Shown here: positions 4,200-63,905 of the stretch, piece after piece
Layout: each line of letters opens with the position of its first letter
Position numbering within the stretch: position 1 is the first letter of the stretch
Assembly: GCA_041489925.1 (NCBI GenBank)
Contig: JBGPSD010000005.1
Location: 1,581-65,580 of the forward strand
Direction of reading: 5' to 3'
From: Candidatus Nanoarchaeia archaeon
GTDB taxonomy: Archaea; Nanobdellota; Nanobdellia; Woesearchaeales; ARS49
Length of the DNA stretch: 64,000 nucleotides
Program-made: the position numbers and the translations under genes
The notes under the pieces: model-generated
What the model was told of the DNA's origin: nothing
The model's database searches: none
The model's input: only the letters and a program-made list of their open reading frames with translations

Positions 4200-4272
4200 G
4201 AGCCCGTAGTTTAGCGGTCATAACGCCTCGTTGACGTCGAGGAGGTCGCCAGTTCGAATCTGGCCGGGCTCA
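4200..4272 (+). tRNA. tRNA-Val (anticodon GAC)
   Basis: Hand-folded cloverleaf: acceptor GAGCCCG/CGGGCUC, anticodon stem CCUCG/CGAGG with loop UUGACGU, T arm GCCAG-UUCGAAU-CUGGC, discriminator A. 73 nt, no encoded CCA. Confidence 0.9.
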
Positions 4273-4339
4273 TGAGCATCAGCGAATGAGCACGGACAGG
4301 CTCGTCAATCGCAATTGACCGCTGTCTGGCCGGGCTCAT
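4259..4339 (+). repeat. structured insertion E1 with duplicated tRNA-Val 3' end
   Basis: 15-nt TCTGGCCGGGCTCAT occurs at 4259-4273 and 4325-4339. The 51 nt between are GAGCATCAGCGA + ATGAGCACGGACAG (antisense of the target, 12/14) + GCTC + GTCAAT-cgca-ATTGAC + CGCTG. Confidence 0.8.
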
Positions 4340-4408: not shown

Positions 4409-6763
4409 TTATATGAAATTAGCTGCGCTGCCTGGTTCTTGTGCTTCTTTGGTTTCGTCCAATACGTTTGATGAGCTGGCGATGCGCTCCAGTGCCTGCT
4501 TGTGCTGGGGGTGCTGAAGCCTTTCAAGCGCAACTTTCTCAATCTGCCTGACACGCTCCCTTGTCACCTTCATTATTTCCCCGATTTCCTCGAGAGTCCT
4601 GCGCTGGACAAACCTTTCCCGAATTACTTGCAGCTGTTTTGGCTTGAGAATTTGCTCAAGATATCCCCAGAGCTCCTGGTTGTTCAGCGCCTCGCCAGCG
4701 CTTTCCAGCCTGGGGTCAAGCCGCCCAAGAAAATCGCCGATTACAGAGTCATCGTCCTCTGAAATTGCGTTGTCAATGGATGAAAACCTTTTTGCCCAGC
4801 CTCTGAGCTTGCACATCTGCCAGGGCGTCATGCCCATTCTTTCCGCAATTTCATTTATTGACGGCTCCTGGTAGTTGGTCTGGATAAATTTATCAACTTC
4901 CTGGAGATACTTTCCTAGTAGCGCCCTTATGTGAATAGGCCTTCGCAACCCAAGCCCCTGCACTTCGTCAATATATCTGGTGACGCTTTGCTTTATCCAC
5001 CAGCTTGCGTATGTTGTCAGTTTTCCGAGTTCAGGGTCCCACTTGTCAACTGCAGTCATGGCGCCCAGGTTTGCGTGGCTTATCAGGTCAATCCAGCGGT
5101 CGGTGAAGCTGCCGTGCTTTCCCCTTGTCGCGTATTTCTTTGCCCAGAACGCGCTTAGCTTTGCAATCTGCAGGACAAGGGTGTCGCGCGATTCGCGGTA
5201 AATTGCGTAGCTCTTGATTGCCTCCCTGCGGCGGTCACGCGAACCAATATGCGGTTTGTCAGCGACGTATCTTGAGACAATAGGAATAAGGGTTCGCGGC
5301 CGGAACTTATTCATCCTGTAAATCTGCACAACCTCGTCCTCAAGCCGCTCGTACTCCTTCAGTAAACTCTCCCTGCTTTTGCCTGTTTTCTCTTTCAGCG
5401 CGTTCTCAAGATTCACAGCCCTTTGAGCGCGCAGTTCCAGCCTGGCTGTGACGCTTTTCCAGGCGCCCATCTTCGCGCTTGCCTTATACGCGTCGCACTC
5501 AAAAATGCTTGTTGACTGGCGCAAATCCCCTGACTCAATAAGCGAGAGAATCTCCTTTGCGACCGCAGCTGCGGCGTGGGGGTTCCTGAGCGTGAGATAC
5601 ATGAATTTTTCCCTGTGCTCATTCATCGTGTTGCAGATTTCCTTCTGCTTTTCCGCGCTCATTACCCTGGCATTTGCGACTTTCTTGAAATAATACGGGA
5701 TTGCATCCTCCACCCTGTTCTTTGGGGGGTCGAGGTTGATTCCCTTTTTGATAATATCAAATACGTGGTCCACATCTATTTCAGAAACCTTCACCCCTAC
5801 CTGCTCAAGCTGGTCCCTTACCTTTTCGATTTTCTCAAAGTCAGAATTGCCAACAACGCCGAGAACGGCTGTGTACGAAACAACCCCTGCAGCAACCCAC
5901 TTGCTCAGCAATCCGTGCGGGATTGATTTGGCAAGCTCCCTTTCAACAGCCCTCTTGACAATGTTGCCCTCTTTTGCAAACCTTTGCTCGTCAATGAGTT
6001 TCTTCAGGTCTGCAAATTTGTAAAAGACGCGGTTGTTGCGCGTTATTGTCGCAACCTGGTGATATTCTGCCGCGTGCTTTATCCTGTGATAATCAAGATA
6101 AGGTTTTGTAGCCCTCAATGCCTTCCTTATCGGCAGGTATTCCTCGCCAGGCTCTCTCTGTTCCTCGATAAAAGCGAGGTTTCGGTAGCGCTGGCTTACA
6201 AGCCCTGAGCGCCTGTTCTTTGGAAGCAGGGCTGTTTCCTTGAGGTCTGTTGATATTGCGGTGTAAACATCCTTCAACAGGCTTATTGGAATCCCGCCCT
6301 TGACCCTGAAATATTCAGGCATTGCAATGCAATTAATCCGGAGGAATGGCAGCGATGCAACCTGGCCATTGTTTTCAGGATATGACTTGAAGATTTTTTC
6401 CCTTGCCTGCTCAACATACGCCTGAAAGTCTGCGATAAGGACTGATTTTGATGAGCCAAGGCTGTTTCCATACTTGCTTTTGAAAAACTCCTGGACAGGC
6501 GCCGTATCCGTGATGTCAAACGCGTTAGCCAGCTCCTCAAGGCTCAACCGCTGAAAAAGCCCAACATCATCGACGTGAATCATGTCCCTGAAAGTCTGGC
6601 TTTCCACGCCAAGTGTCCTGTTCAGGTTCCTGTGCCTTGAGAATCCCTCGTAAATGTCAACAGCGTCAACGCAGGGGAAAACCTGCGGCACTTCCATCGC
6701 GCAAAGGTATTCCTTGTCATAATCCGCTGCGGTAACAGCACCGTAGAACTTACCTTTGGGCAT
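4409..6763 (-). CDS. sigma-70 family protein with a long N-terminal extension
   Basis: The C-terminal ~300 aa match bacterial RpoD motif by motif. Region 2: LISHANLGAMTAVDKWDPELGKLTTYASWWIKQSVTRYI. Region 3: SINEIAERMGMTPWQM. Region 4.2: RTLEEIGEIMKVTRERVRQIEKVALERLQHP. Region 1.2-like: EDAIPYYFKKV. Confidence 0.85.
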   Translation of the reverse strand: MPKGKFYGAVTAADYDKEYLCAMEVPQVFPCVDAVDIYEGFSRHRNLNRTLGVESQTFRDMIHVDDVGLFQRLSLEELANAFDITDTAPVQEFFKSKYGNSLGSSKSVLIADFQAYVEQAREKIFKSYPENNGQVASLPFLRINCIAMPEYFRVKGGIPISLLKDVYTAISTDLKETALLPKNRRSGLVSQRYRNLAFIEEQREPGEEYLPIRKALRATKPYLDYHRIKHAAEYHQVATITRNNRVFYKFADLKKLIDEQRFAKEGNIVKRAVERELAKSIPHGLLSKWVAAGVVSYTAVLGVVGNSDFEKIEKVRDQLEQVGVKVSEIDVDHVFDIIKKGINLDPPKNRVEDAIPYYFKKVANARVMSAEKQKEICNTMNEHREKFMYLTLRNPHAAAAVAKEILSLIESGDLRQSTSIFECDAYKASAKMGAWKSVTARLELRAQRAVNLENALKEKTGKSRESLLKEYERLEDEVVQIYRMNKFRPRTLIPIVSRYVADKPHIGSRDRRREAIKSYAIYRESRDTLVLQIAKLSAFWAKKYATRGKHGSFTDRWIDLISHANLGAMTAVDKWDPELGKLTTYASWWIKQSVTRYIDEVQGLGLRRPIHIRALLGKYLQEVDKFIQTNYQEPSINEIAERMGMTPWQMCKLRGWAKRFSSIDNAISEDDDSVIGDFLGRLDPRLESAGEALNNQELWGYLEQILKPKQLQVIRERFVQRRTLEEIGEIMKVTRERVRQIEKVALERLQHPQHKQALERIASSSNVLDETKEAQEPGSAANFI

Positions 6764-8915: not shown

Positions 8916-9008
8916 ATGAAGCTTAAAGTCAAAGACAATGAAAAAGCTGCGCTTTTTCAAGCCCTTAACTCTCAACCGAGTGATAACAAATGAAACTGAG
9001 AGTTAAGG
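8916..9008 (+). promoter_or_regulatory. 25-codon upstream ORF plus a 12-bp hairpin enclosing the deoA start codon
   Basis: uORF MKLKVKDNEKAALFQALNSQPSDNK (8916-8993) has a GAGGAG-like upstream motif and ends in ATGA overlap with the deoA ATG (8990). CCTTAACTCTCA (8963-8974) is the exact reverse complement of TGAGAGTTAAGG (8997-9008). Confidence 0.5.
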
Positions 9009-10483
9009 ATATGGACATAGCTACAGGCGACGTCCAGGTCGTAATTCTTAATGAGAAAGACGCAGATATGCTTGACCTGCACCACAATGACCGCATCTTC
9101 GTGAGGAAAGACAGGCGCCACACAATCGCAGTCCTTGACATCGGGGAAAGCGAAAAGGCAGTGCCGGCTGGCTCAATAGGGCTTTTTGAGGAAGTTCTTG
9201 ACGCACTGTACGCAAAAGACGGAGACACTGTGTCAATCGAGCTCGCGAGAAAGCCAAAGAGCGTCGGCTACATAAGGAAAAAGCTCGACGGAAAAGAGCT
9301 GACCTACAGCGAAATCTATGAGGTCATAAAGGACATTGGCAAAAACCAGCTCACCGACATAGAGCTGGCGAGCTATGTGACTGCAAATTACATAACAGGA
9401 ATGAGCGACAATGAAATCATAAACCTCACAAAGGCAATGATTTTCACAGGCACCAAGCTGAAAATTGCGAAAAAGCCTGTTGTTGACATCCACTGCATTG
9501 GCGGAGTGCCTGGCAACAGGACAACAATGATTGTCGTCCCAATCCTAATCGCTGCAGGGCTGACAGTGCCAAAGACAAGCTCAAGGGCAATAACATCTCC
9601 GGCAGGCACTGCAGACACAATGGAAGTCCTGTGCCCTGTTTCTTTGCCGATTTCAAAGCTTTACCAGATTCTCAACAGTGTCGGCGGCTTCATAATCTGG
9701 GGCGGCTCTGTCAACCTTGCGCCTGCAGATGACCGCATTATCAAAGTCGAGCACCCGCTAAGCATTGACGCAGAAGGCCAGATGCTTGCATCGATTATGG
9801 CGAAAAAGGCAAGCGTCAGCGCAACGCACCTGCTGATGGACATTCCTGTCGGCAAGGGCGCAAAAGTTGAGGACAGGAAGCAGGCAGTCCACCTTCAGGG
9901 CCACTTTGAGCGCCTTGGAAAGGAGCTCGGGATTCAGGTCTGCACGATTATAACGCAGGGCTCAGAGCCGATAGGAAACGGCATAGGGCCTGTCCTTGAG
10001 GCAAAAGACTGCCTTTGGGTCTTGAAGAATGATTCAAGGGCGCCTCAGGATTTGAGGAGAAAAAGCCTTGAAATGGCAGCAGTCGCGCTTGAATTTGCAG
10101 GAGCAGCAAAAAAAGGGCAGGGAATGCAGATGGCGACAGAAATCCTGAACAGCGGCAAGGCATACAAGGTGTTTGTTGACATGATTCGCGCGCAGGGCGG
10201 CAAAGATGTTGACCCTGAAAGCCTTAAGCCCTGCCCATTGCAGTACACCTATTCCGCGCCAAAGGCAGGACTGGTGAAATCCCTTGACAATATCTCAATC
10301 GCGCGCATAGCAAGGATGGCAGGGGCGCCAAGGGACCCTGACTCAGGAATACTTCTCCACCGCCACTGCGGAGATTCTGTGAAAAAAGGGGAGCCGATAA
10401 TGACAATTTACGCGCACACAAAAGAAAAGCTCGGCTATGCAATAGATATCCTGAAAGACCTTGACGGCATTATTGTTCAGTAA
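8990..10483 (+). CDS. deoA: AMP phosphorylase (archaeal thymidine phosphorylase family)
   Basis: 497 aa. Has the archaeal-type N-terminal domain (MKLRVKDMDIATGDVQVVILNEKDA...) followed by the glycosyl transferase family 3 core (HCIGGVPGNRTT, TSSRAITSPAGTADT). Confidence 0.88.
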   Translation: MKLRVKDMDIATGDVQVVILNEKDADMLDLHHNDRIFVRKDRRHTIAVLDIGESEKAVPAGSIGLFEEVLDALYAKDGDTVSIELARKPKSVGYIRKKLDGKELTYSEIYEVIKDIGKNQLTDIELASYVTANYITGMSDNEIINLTKAMIFTGTKLKIAKKPVVDIHCIGGVPGNRTTMIVVPILIAAGLTVPKTSSRAITSPAGTADTMEVLCPVSLPISKLYQILNSVGGFIIWGGSVNLAPADDRIIKVEHPLSIDAEGQMLASIMAKKASVSATHLLMDIPVGKGAKVEDRKQAVHLQGHFERLGKELGIQVCTIITQGSEPIGNGIGPVLEAKDCLWVLKNDSRAPQDLRRKSLEMAAVALEFAGAAKKGQGMQMATEILNSGKAYKVFVDMIRAQGGKDVDPESLKPCPLQYTYSAPKAGLVKSLDNISIARIARMAGAPRDPDSGILLHRHCGDSVKKGEPIMTIYAHTKEKLGYAIDILKDLDGIIVQ

Positions 10484-11082
10484 CCTTCCTTGTGCTCTTT
10501 GGTGTGCTCGTTGTGTATCGCGACCATTGCCCTGTGCGAGGCATAAAGCCTTCCTTTCATCACCCTGAGAACGTTTTGCCCGCCACGTAATCCCCTTGCA
10601 GTAATCCTTGCCTCCTTTGCAAGCAGTTCAGCCTCTTTTGCAATCCTTGTTTCCATTGCGAGCTTTTCCGCTTCCTGTATAAGCCTTGCCTCCCTGAGCA
10701 GGACTGCCTCGTGCGCGACTTTCTGGCCGCTCTCTGCAACCTGCTCACCGACTGCGAAAATCGCAGCCACCTGCTCATAAGCCCTGAATGCAAGATAGAA
10801 CGGGAACACTGCAATCATGTCAAGCCAGTACAGCTTGAAAAACTTCCTGACATTTTTTGTCTTGAACCACTTGAAAACAAGGTCAACAACAAAGAAGAAA
10901 ACAATTATGTAGTCAAATATGGTCATCCACGGCCCGTGTTCGCTGATTGGATACAGAGTCCAGAACGGGTTTTCAACAATGAGCACGAGGGCAAGGATGA
11001 TAACCAGAAAAGGGATTATGTGGTCAGTAAAGTGCTCAAACTCATGAGTAAACCTCTGCCACAAACTCCTCTTTTTTTCCAT
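10477..11082 (-). CDS. membrane protein with a voltage-sensor-like (ion_trans S1-S3-like) N-terminus and coiled-coil tail
   Basis: FDYIIVFFFVVDLVFKWFKTKNVRKFFKLYWLDMIAVFPFYL resembles the S2-S3 segments of ion-transport proteins. No pore or selectivity filter. The ATG directly abuts the duplicated tRNA-Ser 3' end. Confidence 0.45.
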   Translation of the reverse strand: MEKKRSLWQRFTHEFEHFTDHIIPFLVIILALVLIVENPFWTLYPISEHGPWMTIFDYIIVFFFVVDLVFKWFKTKNVRKFFKLYWLDMIAVFPFYLAFRAYEQVAAIFAVGEQVAESGQKVAHEAVLLREARLIQEAEKLAMETRIAKEAELLAKEARITARGLRGGQNVLRVMKGRLYASHRAMVAIHNEHTKEHKEGY

Positions 11083-11243
11083 ACGCCGACGGCAGGACAG
11101 CGGTCAACTTCGCTGATGCTCGTTGACCAGCCATGTCCGTGCCCTGATGAGCACGGCCAGACAGCGGTCAACTTGCGAGTTGACGAGCCCTGCCTGAACC
11201 TCACATATGTTACCTACTATATATTTATACGCCGACGGCAGGA
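11081..11243 (-). repeat. composite structured insertion E4 with duplicated tRNA-Ser 3' end
   Basis: Minus-strand 17-nt TCCTGCCGTCGGCGTAT occurs at 11243-11227 and 11097-11081. The 129 nt between hold an AT-rich stretch, a near copy of the E1 3' half including a tRNA-Val 3' end (TCTGGCCGTGCTCATCAGG), and the hairpin GTCAAC-GAGCATCAGCGA-aGTTGAC followed by CGCTG. Confidence 0.75.
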
Positions 11244-11312
11244 TTTGAACCTACAATTCCTTTCGGAACCCGCTCTCAAGGCGGGCGCACTACCGGGTTA
11301 TGCGACGTCGGC
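11230..11312 (-). tRNA. tRNA-Ser (anticodon UGA)
   Basis: Hand fold: acceptor GCCGACG/CGUCGGC, anticodon stem CCCGC/GCGGG with loop CUUGAGA, long variable arm UUCCGAAAGGAAUU, T arm GUAGG-UUCAAAU-CCUGC, discriminator G. 83 nt. Confidence 0.85.
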
Positions 11313-11479
11313 ATTATACCTTGCGATTACTTGCCTCCGTCACAAGACCTCTCGTTCTGCGGAACTTCAAGGTTATGCGACGTCGGCATTATACACTGCG
11401 ATTACTGGCCGACCTCGCTGGATCCTTTGCTCTGCGGAGCTGCAGGATATGCGACGTCGGCATTATACCGTGCGATTAT
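11296..11479 (-). repeat. tandem triplication (74-75-bp period) of the tRNA-Ser 5' flank plus its first 14-17 nt
   Basis: 35-nt blocks at 11296-11330, 11371-11405 and 11445-11479 (minus strand GTAATCGCAnnGTATAATGCCGACGTCGCATAnCC). The intervening 39-40 nt are related to each other. The distal unit folds as GCCGACGTCGC...GCGAGGTCGGC. Confidence 0.8.
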
Positions 11480-11534
11480 GTTACTCATAATCAAATACAT
11501 ACTTTAAAAAACATGCGGTTCCAAGCGGTGTTTT

Positions 11535-15879: not shown

Positions 15880-17049
15880 TTATAAGTTAATACCTTTTAA
15901 AAGCGCCTTAAAGTTGCCTTTTGTCGGGCTGTGCTTGTAGTGCTTTGCCCAGTGCTTTATGTCCTTAAATGGGGCAATCCTTTGCTTTGCTGCGAATGAG
16001 CAAAGCTGAGTTACATTCCTTTGCTTTTTCACCATGTGAGTCCTTTCAAAGTCAATCAGGACAATTTTTCCTTTCGGTGTCAGTATCGCGTTCTTCAAAG
16101 GTCTTAGCATTTCCTCTTTTGCAAGCCCTGCGCTGTCAAGTGTGAATGCCTGCTCAAACAATTGCCTGAATATTTTCCTTTTCAGGGCTTTGCCTGCTGT
16201 GTCAAGAACATCCTCGACATACCTTCCAGGGATGTATTCGTAAACCACAAAATCCCTTTCAGCAGCAAAGAGTTTTGGACCCAGCCCGAGTTTGTTAACA
16301 ACATTCAGCACTTTTCCCTCTTTTGCAGGCGAGTTCACAGCAGAATCAGGGCGCTTTACCTTGACAACGCAATCTTTTCCGCAGTATTTTCCCTTGTAAA
16401 CCCAGCTGCGCTTGCCCCTTGAAAAGTAGGTTGTGCCCTTTGCCCCTGATTTTTCAATCTTTTTCAGCAATGCAGACTTTGTAATCCTGTAAACAAACAG
16501 GTCCTCAAAGAAAATGTGAAGCCTGCCAAGCTCCCTGAACTCGAAAAGGTTCTGCCTTATTGACTGCTCAATGTGGTCTTTTCCGCTAAGCGAGGAAAAC
16601 AGGAGCAAAATCACTCCATCAGCCGAAAGAAACGCGTTTGCGCTTTTCAAAAACCGCACAATTGTCTCATATCCTTTCTTTCCGCCTTCAAGCGCAACGT
16701 CCCTTTCAGGCAGCGCCGACCTGCTGGTCGGCTGGTCTGAGCTCGCTGATGCTCGCTCAGGCAGTTCCTGCGGAAGATAAGGGGGATTAAAAATTATTGT
16801 GTCAAATTCGCCCTTTACTTTTGAAAACAAATTGCTCTGCAGGCATTTTATCTTTTTGTTCCTGATATTCTTTTTGCAATGTGAGACAACAGCAGGATTG
16901 ATATCGACGGCAAGCACTGACGTTGCCTTTTTTGCAGCAGCCAGCGCCTGTATTCCTGAGCCAGTGCCCATGTCAAGGGCTCTGCCTTTTGCAAGCCTCT
17001 TGACGTGCTTTTCAAGCAATAAGGAGTCCTCTTTTGGCGGGTAAATCAT
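15880..17049 (-). CDS. HemK/Mtq2-like glutamine methyltransferase fused to a small protein-kinase-like (Bud32/RIO-like) domain
   Basis: N-terminal half: SAM motif DMGTGSGI and catalytic IIFNPPY. C-terminal half: glycine-rich GAKGTTYFSRGKRSWVYKG, VVKVKRP, and KNAIL...LIDFE resembling a kinase catalytic/DFG-like region. A 4-nt overlap links it to the downstream lipoprotein gene. Confidence 0.7.
   Translation of the reverse strand: MIYPPKEDSLLLEKHVKRLAKGRALDMGTGSGIQALAAAKKATSVLAVDINPAVVSHCKKNIRNKKIKCLQSNLFSKVKGEFDTIIFNPPYLPQELPERASASSDQPTSRSALPERDVALEGGKKGYETIVRFLKSANAFLSADGVILLLFSSLSGKDHIEQSIRQNLFEFRELGRLHIFFEDLFVYRITKSALLKKIEKSGAKGTTYFSRGKRSWVYKGKYCGKDCVVKVKRPDSAVNSPAKEGKVLNVVNKLGLGPKLFAAERDFVVYEYIPGRYVEDVLDTAGKALKRKIFRQLFEQAFTLDSAGLAKEEMLRPLKNAILTPKGKIVLIDFERTHMVKKQRNVTQLCSFAAKQRIAPFKDIKHWAKHYKHSPTKGNFKALLKGINL
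16706..16764 (-). repeat. structured insertion E2, in frame inside the methyltransferase-kinase gene
   Basis: Sense strand: CTGCCTGA | GCGAGCATCAGCGAGCTCAGACCAGCCGACCAGCAGGTCGGCG | CTGCCTGA. An 8-nt direct repeat flanks 43 nt, adding 17 codons (RASASSDQPTSRSALPE) between duplicated LPE(R) codons just after the NPPY loop. Confidence 0.75.
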
Positions 17050-25521: not shown

Positions 25522-26073
25522 TTAACGAACCATTTGCCCTGTCTGCTGCTTTGGGGCAGGCATCGGTGCAGGTTTTACAGGCACAGGCTGTGGCGCAGAA
25601 GGTGCTTTTGGAACTGCAGGCTTCGGAGCAACAGGCTTGACTTCAGCGGGCTTTGCCGCTGCTGGCTTGACTTCAGCTGGTTTTGCAGGCAGCGCCGACT
25701 TCGTCGGCTGGTCTGCACTCGCCCCTGCTCGTGCAGGCGCTTCAGGCTTCTTCTCGCCAGGCTTTGCGCCCTTCTTCGGCTTCTCTTCTTTCTTTTTCTC
25801 AACAGGAGCGCCGACAATTTCAGCCCTTACAATGCCCTTGTCGTCCTTTATAACATTGACCTTGACCCTTGAAGGCGGATTCTTGATGCCGTGGCTCCAG
25901 AGAATCAGGTTGAGGTATTTGCCGAGCTTTATGTTGTCCATTTCCTCAACTTTCATGTGGCGCATCAGGAATTCGCGTATAGCTCGCACTGCCTTTTTCG
26001 CGCGCTTGTACTTGACTGATTTCAGCCATTCCCTGCGCAAGGGTATTGTGTAAGTGCGTTCAATGTTTGCCAT
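25522..26073 (-). CDS. rpl31e: 50S ribosomal protein L31e with a long Ala/Pro/Lys-rich C-terminal extension
   Basis: The N-terminal ~90 aa (ERTYTIPLRREWLKSVKYKRAKKAVRAIREF...) are L31e-like. The remaining ~90 aa are low-complexity. Confidence 0.88.
   Translation of the reverse strand: MANIERTYTIPLRREWLKSVKYKRAKKAVRAIREFLMRHMKVEEMDNIKLGKYLNLILWSHGIKNPPSRVKVNVIKDDKGIVRAEIVGAPVEKKKEEKPKKGAKPGEKKPEAPARAGASADQPTKSALPAKPAEVKPAAAKPAEVKPVAPKPAVPKAPSAPQPVPVKPAPMPAPKQQTGQMVR
25684..25738 (-). repeat. structured insertion E3, in frame in the L31e tail
   Basis: Sense strand: GCCTGCA | CGAGCAGGGGCGAGTGCAGACCAGCCGACGAAGTCGGCGCT | GCCTGCA. Encodes ...RAGASADQPTKSALPA... Hairpins CTGCAC/GTGCAG and GCCGAC/GTCGGC parallel those of E2. 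Confidence 0.7.
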
Positions 26074-62601: not shown

Positions 62602-62961
62602 ATGAGTGGAGAAAAATCAGTCTGGATTGTTGACTCTGGGCCTATTGAGGATAAAATGCGCCTGGAGCTCGAGCAGAAAGTGCCTGGTGTTGCTGTTACT
62701 GCGTTCCAAAGTGTCTGCGACGCTGTTGATGCATTGCGAAGCGGACAGAAGCCGCAGGTTATCCTCGGAAATGACCGCTCTTGGGAACTGATGCTTGAAC
62801 TCCTTTACCAGCCAAGCAAGTATCACGGAATAATTCCTGCTTATGTTTCAGAACAGGACCTTTCACAGCTTGCGGCCACGCATCATGTCGGGTATGTGAA
62901 AATAGGCAAGGAAGGCAGCTTTGACGGCCTTGCTGAATTTGTGCAGAAGTGGGCGCAGTGA
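62602..62961 (+). CDS. receiver-like protein (degenerate)
   Basis: VWIVDSGP...VILGNDRSW... has similar length and pattern to the two upstream genes. Confidence 0.45.
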   Translation: MSGEKSVWIVDSGPIEDKMRLELEQKVPGVAVTAFQSVCDAVDALRSGQKPQVILGNDRSWELMLELLYQPSKYHGIIPAYVSEQDLSQLAATHHVGYVKIGKEGSFDGLAEFVQKWAQ

Positions 62962-63010
62962 GTTGTTTTCCAAAACCTTTTTAACCACATTATTGATTTT
63001 CAAGGGTATT

Positions 63011-63100
63011 GGGCTCTTAGCTCAGTCTGGTAGAGCATTCGGCTCTTACGCTTATTGCGCAGAAACCGAATGGCCAAGGGTTCAAATCCCTTAGAGCCCG
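63011..63100 (+). tRNA. tRNA-Lys (anticodon CUU) with a 16-nt intron
   Basis: Hand fold: acceptor GGGCUCU/AGAGCCC, D arm GCUC-AGUCUGGUA-GAGC, anticodon stem UUCGG/CCGAA with loop CUCUUA[intron]A, T arm AAGGG-UUCAAAU-CCCUU, discriminator G. Confidence 0.85.
63049..63064 (+). other. putative tRNA intron at canonical position 37/38
   Basis: CGCUUAUUGCGCAGAA interrupts the anticodon loop and contains an internal CGC/GCG helix. Exact boundaries not verified by a BHB fold. Confidence 0.6.
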
Positions 63101-63178
63101 TAATGAGTAACAACGAATGGAGGAATCTAAGGCTGGACGACCGCTGTCGGCCGCTGCCTTAGAGCCCGTAATGAGTAA
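63089..63178 (+). repeat. structured insertion E5 with duplicated tRNA-Lys 3' end plus downstream gene start
   Basis: 22-nt CCTTAGAGCCCGTAATGAGTAA occurs at 63089-63110 and 63157-63178. The 46-nt insert CAACGAATGGAGGAATCTAAGGCTGGACGACCGCTGTCGGCCGCTG contains an antisense TCTAAGG and ends in GTCGGCCGCTG like E2/E3. Confidence 0.8.
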
Positions 63179-63905
63179 AACATTATTGTGTCCATTATTT
63201 GTATTCTTGCTCCTGCTTACAGCCTGCGTTCCAAAGCCAGAGCCATATGTCCTTGAAGACCGCGAGCCTTCATCGTCGAATATCACGCAGGAAATTGCCC
63301 AGCTCGAGGAGCAGGCAAAGGCGCAGGTACGGGCGCAGTTTGAAGCAGCAGAGCAGAAAAAACAGGAACAGCAACAGGAAGCGCAAAAGCCTGCAGAGGA
63401 GCCAAAGCCCCAGGTTACAGTCCAGCAGGGGGTGCAAACAGCGTCTGTCCCTCTGGGGGTTTATCCCGATTACTTCATGGACGGCGATGCTTTCAAGTCA
63501 AACTTCATAACAGTTGTCGGCGAGGAAGCGCCGTCAAGCTATGTTGTCGCTGTCTCCAACCTGATGGCCCGCAGTCCTGGAACCAAGCCGACAGGATTCA
63601 GCATGCTCGCGAGCGAAATTAATGATTTGTCAAAGTATAACATTGTTGTTGCGGGAACAGCCTGCAATAATGAGGTTGTTGAGAAATTGCTGGGCACTCC
63701 AATACCCTGCGACACTGCTCCTTTGCCGTCGGGAAAAGGGCTTATCAGGCTGTATGAGTCTGCAAACGGAAATGTCGTGCTTCTTGCAGCAGGAAAGACA
63801 GACGCGCTTGTAATCGCAGCTGTGAACGCAATCGGCACAGACCAGTTTATCAGCGTGACAGGCAATGAGATTTGCGTGCAGGGAACAACACTCGTTGCGT
63901 GCTGA
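63171..63905 (+). CDS. lipoprotein, hypothetical
   Basis: Trimmed to MSKTLLCPLFVFLLLLTAC (lipobox LLTAC). The ATG lies inside the second repeat copy. Has a Gln/Glu/Lys-rich linker and then a globular part. Confidence 0.6.
   Translation: MSKTLLCPLFVFLLLLTACVPKPEPYVLEDREPSSSNITQEIAQLEEQAKAQVRAQFEAAEQKKQEQQQEAQKPAEEPKPQVTVQQGVQTASVPLGVYPDYFMDGDAFKSNFITVVGEEAPSSYVVAVSNLMARSPGTKPTGFSMLASEINDLSKYNIVVAGTACNNEVVEKLLGTPIPCDTAPLPSGKGLIRLYESANGNVVLLAAGKTDALVIAAVNAIGTDQFISVTGNEICVQGTTLVAC

What the first reader, a model, noticed from the sequence alone, without database searches (positions are those of the whole stretch)
63089..63178. E5: 22-nt duplication spanning the tRNA-Lys 3' end and the lipoprotein start creates a uORF
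The repeat CCTTAGAGCCCGTAATGAGTAA covers the T-stem 3' strand, acceptor 3' strand, discriminator and the first 2.7 codons (ATGAGTAA) of the downstream lipoprotein gene. Originally the ORF therefore began 2 nt after the tRNA. The first copy's ATG (63103) now opens a 19-codon uORF (MSNNEWRNLRLDDRCRPLP) that stops at 63160-63162, 8 nt before the real ATG (63171). The insert contains TCTAAGG (antisense to CCTTAGA) and ends in GTCGGCCGCTG like E2/E3. The parallel with deoA (a duplicated start giving a uORF) suggests a recurrent way of generating translational leaders.
Basis: partly seen in the sequence, partly recalled or inferred. Interest (0 to 1): 0.65.

Follow-up and report, generated by a model that had tools for sequence, protein, structure and literature searches.

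The report
Hairpin mini-insertion behind a tRNA gene
The 22-base duplication is real, but it is the pair of flanking repeats left by a small hairpin-forming DNA cassette that repeatedly lands at the ends of tRNA genes in this group of tiny archaea; the short upstream reading frame it creates looks like an accident, not a regulatory device.

Summary
CCTTAGAGCCCGTAATGAGTAA occurs exactly twice (63089-63110, 63157-63178), with none expected by chance. It spans the 3' end of an intron-containing tRNA-Lys(CUU) and the start of a lipoprotein gene. Three relatives have an empty site, with the ATG 3 nt after the tRNA.

The 46-nt insert is not a local curiosity. It is a somewhat decayed member of a cassette family found behind all three tRNAs of the window (Val, Ser, Lys) and behind tRNAs in seven other contigs, one from a named Woesearchaeota MAG. 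Reading outward from the gene, the layout is: tRNA end, loop, inverted copy of the tRNA end, conserved hairpin (GGCTCGTCAAY-loop-RTTGACCGCTGT or a GxCGAC/GTCGGC variant), second copy of the tRNA end. A covariance model built without the Lys copy finds it at E about 8e-6.

Flanking duplications range from 10 to 26 nt at tRNA 3' ends, and reach about 37 nt at a tRNA 5' end. Empty sites exist in close relatives. One copy carries flank DNA from another locus of the same genome.

The uORF is absent from the two relatives with an element at the same site, so it is most likely incidental. I found no transposase and no published description. The mechanism is unresolved: template switching or an unknown recombinase.

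The parts
63011..63100 (+). tRNA-Lys(CUU) gene with an ~18-nt insert (intron) in the anticodon loop
   Evidence: Rfam tRNA, 62.3 bits; ARAGORN. Conserved in relatives L142-L146 and L132.
63089..63110 (+). Gene-proximal direct repeat (copy 1): 4 nt of the T-stem 3' strand, the acceptor 3' strand, the discriminator, and 10 nt of trailer (TAATGAGTAA)
   Evidence: Exact 22-nt match to 63157-63178; 0 expected by chance.
63111..63121 (+). Left part ('loop A') of the insert, CAACGAATGGA. Poorly conserved. The corresponding stretch is TGAGCGTAGCGAA in L132 and TAGCGAAGCGAA in L142.
   Evidence: Alignment of the Lys loci.
63122..63132 (+). Inverted copy of the tRNA end ('mimic'), GGAATCTAAGG, against the perfect complement GGGCTCTAAGG. 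TCTAAGG pairs with CCTTAGA of either repeat.
   Evidence: Folds; local alignment. The equivalent segment covaries with the distal copy across 10 family members.
63133..63156 (+). Core hairpin, subfamily 2: CTG-GACGAC-CGCT-GTCGGC-CGCTG. It corresponds to GGCTC-GTCAAY-loop-RTTGAC-CGCTGT of subfamily 1.
   Evidence: Covariance model R1 aligns 63119-63167 at 30.7 bits, E 8.2e-6. This copy was not in the training set. The same GxCGAC/GTCGGC stem occurs in L128 insert 1.
63157..63178 (+). Distal direct repeat (copy 2). It abuts the core and carries the real start of the lipoprotein gene.
63103..63162 (+). 19-codon uORF opened by the duplicated ATG. Judged incidental.
   Evidence: Translation. No upstream ATG in L142 or in the held part of L132.
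63171..63905 (+). Lipoprotein gene (MSKTLLCPLFVFLLLLTAC...). True start at 63171 by homology; the gene caller's 63117 start lies inside the insert.
   Evidence: 34 homologues, several named Woesearchaeota. In relatives the N-terminus starts 3 nt after the tRNA. The in-frame extension is shown.
4260..4339 (+). Family member at tRNA-Val(GAC). Copy 1 CTGGCCGGGCTCAT at 4260-4273; 52-nt insert (loop GAGCATCAGCGAA, mimic TGAGCACGGACAG, core) at 4274-4325; copy 2 at 4326-4339.
   Evidence: R1 68.1 bits. The orthologous occupied locus L138 has a different loop A.
11081..11242 (-). Compound family member at tRNA-Ser(UGA). A perfect 16-nt duplication, CCTGCCGTCGGCGTAT, flanks a 130-nt insert with two cores. 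The inner part is Val-type and includes 5 nt (TCAGG) of the window's own Val-locus flank. The downstream ion-transporter ORF starts inside copy 2.
   Evidence: R1 62.1 and 52.4 bits. Empty site in close relatives L151 and L147.
11289..11512 (-). Three tandem units carrying the tRNA-Ser 5' end. Each unit has a small CGCA-loop hairpin and an inverted copy of the tRNA 5' end, a mirror image of the 3' elements.
   Evidence: Repeat family D2; sequence. L147 has 1 unit, L151 has 2, the window has 3. An analogous 5' insertion at tRNA-Leu in L123 scores 21.9 bits, E 0.002.

Best explanation
The 22-nt repeat is the duplication that flanks an inserted copy of a small (about 40-60 nt, sometimes compound) hairpin cassette. 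The cassette spreads among the ends of tRNA genes in Woesearchaeota.

Shown:
- Reading outward from the gene, the layout is: gene-end copy, loop, inverted copy of the gene end, conserved hairpin core, second copy of the gene end.
- The insertion pushed the lipoprotein ORF from 2-3 nt to 70 nt behind tRNA-Lys and duplicated its first 8 nt. That created an accidental uORF and an in-frame upstream ATG.

Inferred:
- The lipoprotein is still expressed by read-through from the tRNA promoter. No TATA-like sequence lies between tRNA and ATG here, and relatives leave only 3 nt.
- The cassette spreads by copy-and-paste from another occupied tRNA locus. A nascent DNA strand (or an unidentified recombinase) leaves the recipient just past the tRNA end, copies loop, inverted copy and hairpin from a donor locus, and re-enters the recipient at the T-stem 3' strand, so the tRNA end is written twice.
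- The strong hairpin then drives short templated corrections that make the adjacent arm complementary to the local tRNA end.

The uORF is a by-product.
For: Family membership:
- R1 was built from 10 intact copies without the Lys copy. In 64 kb it hits only behind the three tRNAs: 68, 62, 52 and 30.7 bits, the last being Lys at E 8e-6.
- Intact copies occur behind tRNA-Arg, Leu, Ser, Lys, Ala, Val and Pro in seven other contigs.

Structure:
- The inverted copy pairs with the distal copy, with both-sided changes at 10 of 15 pairs; 0 of 500 shuffles reach the observed values.
- The inner stem is 98% paired, with T:A to C:G covariation.

Insertion polymorphism:
- Lys site: empty in L143/L144, L145 and L146; occupied in the window and L142 (subfamily 2) and in L132 (subfamily 1).
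- Ser 3' site: empty in L151 (92% identical neighbouring protein) and in L147, against a perfect 16-nt duplication in the window.

Copy-and-paste from a donor:
- The Ser insert carries a Val-type copy plus TCAGG, the window's own Val flank. The orthologous locus L138 reads TGACG there.
- The inverted copy is Val-type beside a Ser target (window), and looks Ser-type beside tRNA-Leu in L123.

Against a conventional transposase:
- Flanking duplications are 10, 13, 14, 15, 16, 22 and 26 nt, and about 37 nt at the Ser 5' end.
- There are no terminal inverted repeats.
- 40 window ORFs gave no transposase, integrase, Cas1 or reverse-transcriptase domain in Pfam.

uORF not conserved.
Against: - No enzyme and no autonomous element were identified.
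- The right junction (core ...CGCTG(T) followed by the T-stem 3' strand) is very uniform, which fits a defined cleavage or joining site better than free template switching.
- The core is nearly identical in contigs from several different samples. This could reflect selection for a function rather than recent spread.
- There are only about a dozen copies, and most were found with a pattern derived from the family itself. The fraction of tRNAs occupied genome-wide is therefore unknown.
- The Lys copy is decayed, and its left part differs so much from L142 that its history (one event plus rearrangement, or two events) is unresolved.
- No transcript data are available.
Confidence: 0.7

Rival explanations
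1. Functional cis-RNA module. The cassette is kept because, in the tRNA-mRNA co-transcript, the inverted copy plus the distal copy fold into an acceptor/T-arm-like minihelix directly in front of the ORF. RNase Z (or RNase P) could then still cut at the same distance from the ATG and produce the near-leaderless mRNA that existed before the insertion. This could coexist with a mobile origin.
For: - ORFs abut tRNAs in this lineage: 3 nt at Lys in four loci, and 1-4 nt at Ser.
- The hairpin with the distal copy is predicted for every member, at -14 to -31 kcal/mol.
- The pairing covaries.
- The two 22-nt copies would give identical processed 5' ends.
- In the Val comparison of the window with L138, the core differs at 1 position while the nearby intergenic flank differs more.
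Against: - Many copies have no downstream ORF on the same strand: Val in the window; L123, L103 and L128 are followed by T-rich terminator-like sequence.
- In L128 insert 1 the inverted copy mirrors the T-stem 5' strand and T-loop, not an acceptor minihelix.
- Mimics carry mismatches in the acceptor part (Lys: AA opposite GC).
- Mirror-image copies sit at 5' ends in antisense orientation.
- No Rfam family matches.
Confidence: 0.15
2. First reader's reading. The duplication matters because it creates a 19-codon uORF that acts as a translational leader for the lipoprotein, and this is a recurrent evolutionary route.
For: The uORF exists and stops 8 nt before the real ATG. If RNase Z cuts after 63100, its AUG would sit 2 nt from the new 5' end.
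Against: - L142 (same core variant) has no upstream ATG, and L132 has none in the held part.
- The peptide is encoded by element sequence that is not conserved.
- The Ser insertion gives no uORF.
- The deoA duplication is unrelated.
Confidence: 0.06
3. Scar of a conventional integrated element. A virus or plasmid integrated into the tRNA gene through a tyrosine recombinase or a casposase (Cas1), duplicating the tRNA 3' end, and later lost nearly all of its interior.
For: - Direct repeats of tRNA 3' ends are the classic att signature.
- Most of the duplications are 13-16 nt and start at the T-arm. This resembles the 14-15-bp duplication made by casposases next to the T-loop of tRNA-Pro or in tRNA-Leu (PMC5137440, PMC4779613).
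- Solo ends of casposons are known (PMC4779613).
Against: - All ten or more copies are tiny and share the same interior, which independent deletions would not give.
- There are no terminal inverted repeats.
- The duplication length varies from 10 to 37 nt.
- Insertions also occur at 5' ends.
- The core pattern is absent from 2.9 million viral contigs.
- No integrase or Cas1 was found in the window.
Confidence: 0.07
4. Simple local tandem duplication by replication slippage, with the spacer diverging afterwards.
For: Two identical 22-mers lie 68 nt apart.
Against: Beyond the 22 nt, the two 68-nt units share nothing. The spacer belongs to a multi-locus family.
Confidence: 0.02

Closest known systems
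Casposon integration sites (Cas1-solo casposases; A. boonei tRNA-Pro, M. mazei tRNA-Leu)
   Same: The target is the 3' part of a tRNA gene. The duplication starts next to the T-arm and is usually about 14-15 bp. Repeated use of one site gives tandem arrays separated by the duplicated segment (PMC5137440, PMC4779613). L128 has three copies of the tRNA end.
   Different: - Casposons are kilobases long, with terminal inverted repeats and cas1/polB genes.
- Here the inserts are 40-130 nt with no inverted termini.
- The duplication varies from 10 to 37 nt.
- An inverted copy of the target is present.
- Insertions also occur at 5' ends.
- No Cas1 was found.
tRNA-targeting integrative elements (tyrosine-recombinase att sites, e.g. 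SSV-type and pTN3-type in archaea)
   Same: A direct repeat of the tRNA 3' end leaves the tRNA intact. tRNA fragments remain as footprints.
   Different: The DNA between the repeats is tens of nucleotides, is shared among different tRNAs, and carries a conserved hairpin. A single integrase would not serve seven or more different tRNA sequences.
Small non-autonomous palindromic repeats (MITEs, REP/BIME, IS200/IS605-derived PATEs)
   Same: Short, hairpin-forming, multi-copy, intergenic, with no coding capacity. The stems covary.
   Different: - Strict association with tRNA gene termini.
- Long and variable flanking duplication.
- An inverted copy of the target next to the hairpin.
- No terminal inverted repeats and no conserved tetranucleotide target.
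Template-switch rearrangements (quasipalindrome correction; MMBIR/FoSTeS direct-inverted-direct structures)
   Same: - Direct-inverted-direct arrangement of a short segment.
- Templated insertion from another locus, including its flank.
- Variable junctions.
- Hairpin at the switch point.
   Different: Those are usually one-off events. Here the same hairpin is propagated to many loci and genomes, that is, it behaves as a heritable, spreading cassette.
Mitochondrial 'tRNA punctuation' (mRNAs released by tRNA processing)
   Same: ORFs start 1-4 nt after a tRNA and have no room for a promoter of their own.
   Different: This is an archaeal chromosome. Processing is inferred, not shown.

Membership tests
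tRNA-end hairpin cassette family defined here (model R1) | Conserved core: GGCTS, 6-bp stem, loop, 6-bp stem, CGCTG(T) | tested here: met
   63119-63167 scores 30.7 bits, E 8.2e-6, with a model built without it. The stem is GACGAC/GTCGGC (5 of 6 pairs) and the loop is CGCT.
tRNA-end hairpin cassette family defined here (model R1) | Core immediately followed by a second copy of the tRNA end that begins in the T-stem 3' strand | tested here: met
   Copy 2 starts at 63157 with CCTT of the T-stem CCCTT. The other members show the same geometry.
tRNA-end hairpin cassette family defined here (model R1) | Inverted copy of the tRNA end directly upstream of the core | tested here: met
   GGAATCTAAGG against the complement GGGCTCTAAGG: 9 of 11 positions, with 7 contiguous.
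tRNA-end hairpin cassette family defined here (model R1) | Presence/absence polymorphism at the orthologous site | tested here: met
   Empty in L143/L144, L145 and L146. Occupied in the window, L142 and L132.
Casposon / Cas1-mediated insertion | Terminal inverted repeats at both ends of the insert | tested here: not met
   Left ends are heterogeneous and are not the reverse complement of ...TTGACCGCTGT.
Casposon / Cas1-mediated insertion | Fixed-length target duplication (about 14-15 bp within one family) | tested here: not met
   10, 13, 14, 15, 16, 22 and 26 nt, and about 37 nt at the Ser 5' end. Most 3'-end copies fall at 13-16 nt.
Casposon / Cas1-mediated insertion | cas1-solo and polB inside or near the element | tested here: inconclusive
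   None inside the inserts. No Cas1 among 40 window ORFs. The only PolB (31857-34304) lies in a housekeeping context. The rest of the genome was not available.
Tyrosine-recombinase integrated element (att remnant) | Integrase gene and element body between attL and attR | tested here: not met
   46-130 nt between the repeats, with no ORF. The same interior occurs at different tRNAs.
MITE | Terminal inverted repeats plus a short fixed target duplication matching a known IS family | tested here: not met
   No terminal inverted repeats; variable long duplication.
Archaeal BHB tRNA intron / split-tRNA arrangement | Bulge-helix-bulge (3-4-3) motif at both boundaries | tested here: not met
   Inspected by eye on the sequence and on the folds. 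The boundary is a 2x4 internal loop, and copy 1 already completes a normal tRNA.
Known RNA families (C/D box sRNA, small ribozymes, any Rfam family) | Match to an Rfam covariance model | tested here: not met
   Only tRNA hits, at the gathering threshold in the window and at E<=1 in four element-bearing loci. C/D-like boxes on the minus strand of the Val copy are not conserved in L138.
Regulatory uORF | Conservation of the uORF (start, frame or peptide) in relatives with the same leader | tested here: not met
   No ATG between the tRNA and the lipoprotein start in L142. None in the held part of L132.
Regulatory uORF | Translation of the uORF and an effect on the downstream ORF | not testable with these tools
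   Needs Ribo-seq or reporter assays.

The most novel reading that the evidence does not exclude
The cassettes are a previously undescribed kind of mobile DNA. In this reading, a roughly 30-nt hairpin propagates specifically to both ends of tRNA genes, writing a direct and an inverted copy of the target each time. It would do so either without a dedicated transposase, as a self-propagating template-switch hotspot, or through a Cas1-like 'ruler' integrase. In the second case, the arrays of tRNA end, insert, tRNA end (three copies in L128) would be a natural analogue of the repeat-spacer step proposed between casposons and CRISPR.
Probability: 0.25. Interest if true: 0.8.

Novelty: new variant of a known kind. 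Interest (0 to 1): 0.55.

Why it matters
- For annotation: these cassettes mislead gene callers. The lipoprotein was called from an ATG inside the insert. They also create pseudo-tRNA ends.
- For biology: they show that in these very compact DPANN genomes the tRNA gene termini are hot spots where short hairpin DNA is repeatedly written in. This happens even where an ORF starts 1-4 nt behind the tRNA and depends on the tRNA promoter.
- For mechanism: if spread proves to be enzyme-free template switching, it would be an example of a sequence that spreads through replication errors alone. If it is integrase-driven, the tRNA-end specificity and the ~14-nt duplication would tie it to the casposon/CRISPR-adaptation lineage.

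Tried and rejected
- Genome-collection scan with GTCAAN{4,20}TTGACCGCTGTC. Post-filtering still gave one true locus, L103 in a Woesearchaeota MAG.
- Viral-contig scan: no hit.
- C/D box sRNA on the minus strand of the Val copy (CUGAUGA ... CUGA). The boxes are absent in the orthologue L138, there is no terminal stem, and there is no Rfam hit.
- Hammerhead or other small ribozyme: a CUGAUGA-like string only, with no GAAA or stem II, and it is not conserved.
- BHB intron or split-tRNA reading: no 3-4-3 motif, and copy 1 already completes the tRNA.
- Integron attC-like site (GGTCAAC/GTTGACC resembles R''/R'): the spacing is far too short and there are no L''/L' boxes.
- K-turn: no bulge next to the tandem GA pairs.
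- tRNA 'minihelix gene' as the general rule: contradicted by L128 insert 1, whose inverted arm mirrors the T-stem 5' strand and T-loop.
- RNA intermediate with CCA: no copy or inverted copy contains CCA or TGG at the expected place.
- Sigma-70-type promoter scan of 62900-63300: nothing found, and the scan is not informative for archaea.
- Literature searches found no description of such elements.

Full report
**1. The observation**

The 22-mer CCTTAGAGCCCGTAATGAGTAA occurs exactly twice in the window, at 63089-63110 and 63157-63178. No such pair appeared in 100 shuffles, even with 3 mismatches allowed.

Copy 1 overlaps the last 12 nt of a tRNA at 63011-63100. That tRNA scores 62.3 bits against Rfam tRNA. 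It has the anticodon loop CUCUUA and an ~18-nt insert, that is, an archaeal intron-containing tRNA-Lys(CUU).

The ATG at 63103 opens MSNNEWRNLRLDDRCRPLP*, ending at 63162. A second ATG at 63117 is in frame with the downstream lipoprotein, and the gene caller used it (262 aa). The identical sequence is present in an independent Logan assembly (L001).

**2. Organism and context**

The window is a housekeeping chromosomal stretch of an archaeon. It encodes Rpp14/Pop5, proteasome alpha, SBDS, exosome subunits, TFB, IleRS, ThrRS, PolB, Cbf5 and S19e. Several homologues of the lipoprotein and of the ion transporter next to tRNA-Ser are named Candidatus Woesearchaeota. None of the 40 ORFs tested has a transposase, integrase, Cas1 or reverse-transcriptase domain.

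**3. The insert is one of a family**

All three tRNAs of the window show the same arrangement. The tRNA end, starting in the T-stem 3' strand and running to 1-10 nt past the discriminator, is written twice. The DNA between the copies ends in ...GACCGCTG(T).

A pattern taken from the Val and Ser copies found the same thing in other contigs:
- behind tRNA-Arg in a Woesearchaeota MAG (L103);
- behind tRNA-Leu, Ser, Lys, Ala, Val and Pro in six metagenome contigs (L123, L128, L132, L134, L138 and L141).

Reading outward from the gene, the order is: copy 1 (part of the tRNA), loop A, an inverted copy of the tRNA end, the core GGCTS-GTCAAY-loop-RTTGAC-CGCTGT, then copy 2.

In an alignment of ten intact copies, 21 core positions are invariant. 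The inner stem is 98% paired and its sixth pair switches T:A to C:G. The outer helix (inverted copy against copy 2) has changes on both sides at 10 of 15 pairs, and 0 of 500 shuffles reach the observed values.

A covariance model built from these ten (R1) hits the window only behind the three tRNAs. The Lys insert was not used for training, yet it scores 30.7 bits, E 8e-6. Its alignment shows that the Lys core is a stem variant, GGCTG-GACGAC-CGCT-GTCGGC-CGCTG. A similar stem, GCCGAC...GTCGGC-GCTG, occurs in L128. L142 has the same variant with a deletion between the two CGCTG repeats.

The loops are GNA/GNRA-type mini-hairpins (C-GAA-G, C-GCAA-G, GCGAAGC) or GA-GC-NNNN-GC-GA. Rfam has no matching family.

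**4. Before-and-after comparisons**

*Lys locus.* In L143/L144, L145 and L146 the lipoprotein ATG lies 3 nt behind the discriminator and there is no insert. L142 (95% identical lipoprotein) and the window carry the subfamily-2 cassette. L132 carries a subfamily-1 cassette at the same site.

*Ser locus.* L151 has a neighbouring protein 92% identical to the window's, and reads ...CCTGCCGTCGGCG-T-ATG with no insert. L147 is also empty. The window has 130 nt flanked by a perfect 16-nt duplication.

That insert contains two cores. Between them lie a Val-type copy of a tRNA end plus TCAGG, which is the flank of the window's own Val locus. The orthologous Val locus in L138 reads TGACG at that position. 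The donor of this insertion was therefore most likely the Val locus of the same genome. The inserted piece is about one and a half units.

Inverted copies can be of donor type: Val-type beside the Ser target in the window, and apparently Ser-type beside tRNA-Leu in L123.

*5' ends.* Mirror-image insertions occur at tRNA 5' ends. Three units lie at tRNA-Ser in the window, against two in L151 and one in L147. One lies at tRNA-Leu in L123 (R1 21.9 bits, E 0.002).

Flanking duplications measure 10, 13, 14, 15, 16, 22 and 26 nt, and about 37 nt at the Ser 5' end.

**5. What it does and how**

*Shown.* The cassette is a polymorphic, multi-locus, tRNA-end-specific insertion with a target duplication and an inverted target copy. 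It moved the lipoprotein start from 2-3 nt to 70 nt behind tRNA-Lys and duplicated ATGAGTAA.

*Inferred: expression.* Expression of the lipoprotein still depends on the conserved tRNA promoter (CCTTTTTAA, about 30 nt upstream of the tRNA). Relatives leave no room for another promoter, and the GC-rich insert has no TATA-like box.

*Inferred: mechanism of spread.* The variable duplication length, heterogeneous left junctions, donor-type inverted copies, captured donor flank, 1.5-mer insert and lack of inverted termini or an enzyme gene fit copy-and-paste by replication template switching between tRNA loci. Hairpin-driven templated correction would follow. These features fit a classical transposase less well. 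Against this, the very uniform right junction and the near-identity of the core in contigs from several different samples leave room for a dedicated recombinase or for a function.

**6. The uORF**

The uORF is encoded by cassette sequence. L142 has no upstream ATG, and L132 has none in the stretch held before the contig ends. It has no counterpart at the Ser insertion. I rate a regulatory role at about 0.06.

One related idea is more interesting. The inverted copy plus copy 2 mimic an acceptor/T-arm helix in front of the ORF and could preserve RNase Z processing. Copies without a downstream ORF, and L128 insert 1, weaken this idea. I give it 0.15.

**7. Comparison with known systems**

The nearest in target geometry are casposon integration sites: tRNA 3' part, duplication starting beside the T-arm, 14-15 bp, tandem reuse of the site (PMC5137440, PMC4779613). 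The defining features are not met, however: no inverted termini, no fixed duplication length, and no cas1 found.

Integrase att scars, MITE/REP-type repeats, BHB introns and Rfam families also fail their defining tests (see the membership table). Five literature searches found no description of such elements.

**8. Verdict**

What is really there is a decayed member of an apparently undescribed family of hairpin cassettes that colonise tRNA gene ends in Woesearchaeota. I class it as a new variant of a known kind (small non-autonomous palindromic insertions). Interest is 0.55. I give a 0.25 chance that the mechanism is new in kind.

Noticed in passing
window 4409-6763 (- strand): A 784-aa ORF with Sigma-70 region 2, 3 and 4 domains (E 1e-8 to 1e-16) sits in an otherwise archaeal housekeeping region, next to the tRNA-Val cassette. 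A bacterial-type sigma factor domain set is unexpected in an archaeon.
   Followed up: no
window 8917-9010: The AMP phosphorylase (deoA-like) gene start is duplicated and diverged: ATGAAGCTTAAAGTCAAAGAC at 8917 against ATGAAACTGAGAGTTAAGGAT at 8990. There is no hairpin cassette, so this is a different kind of event from the tRNA-linked ones.
   Followed up: partly
window 11289-11512 (- strand); L123 2214-2283: tRNA 5' ends are also duplicated, together with their immediate upstream sequence. Each extra unit holds a small CGCA/TGCG-loop hairpin and an inverted copy of the tRNA 5' end, mirroring the 3' cassettes. Unit number differs among close relatives: L147 has 1, L151 has 2, the window has 3.
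   Followed up: partly
window 11080-11100 and 63168-63173; L143-L147, L151: Protein genes start 1-4 nt after the tRNA discriminator: the lipoprotein after tRNA-Lys and the ion transporter after tRNA-Ser. In L149/L150 the tRNA-Ser is absent, and a very similar TATA-like element (GCTTTTATAC; GCTTTTTATAC in L147) lies about 25-30 nt upstream of the ORF. In the window's lineage the tRNA therefore sits in the 5' leader, which suggests tRNA-punctuated, near-leaderless mRNAs.
   Followed up: partly
L142 1059-1905; L132, L143, L145, L146: The tRNA-Lys(CUU) intron content varies among close relatives: none in L145; one of 16-18 nt in the window and L146; two of about 29 and 23 nt, one at a non-canonical position just 5' of the anticodon loop, in L142, L143 and L132. 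In L142 a 242-aa ORF with weak LAGLIDADG hits runs up to, and slightly overlaps, the tRNA 5' end.
   Followed up: no
L128 347-610: The tRNA-Ser 3' end is present three times, separated by two different cassettes. This forms a small array of tRNA end, insert, tRNA end, insert, tRNA end. The first insert has a 26-nt duplication that includes the whole T-arm.
   Followed up: partly
window 16727-16767 and 25703-25743: A 41-nt repeat (78% identity) lies inside two ORFs. The first copy folds as CTGAGC-GAGCATCAGCGA-GCTCAG, the same loop motif as the cassette loops. R1 does not score it significantly (8.1 bits).
   Followed up: no
window 63117-63170: The automatic gene call for the lipoprotein (262 aa) starts at an ATG inside the cassette and adds 18 residues, MEESKAGRPLSAAALEPV, encoded by element DNA. 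Homologues show the signal peptide starts at 63171.
   Followed up: yes
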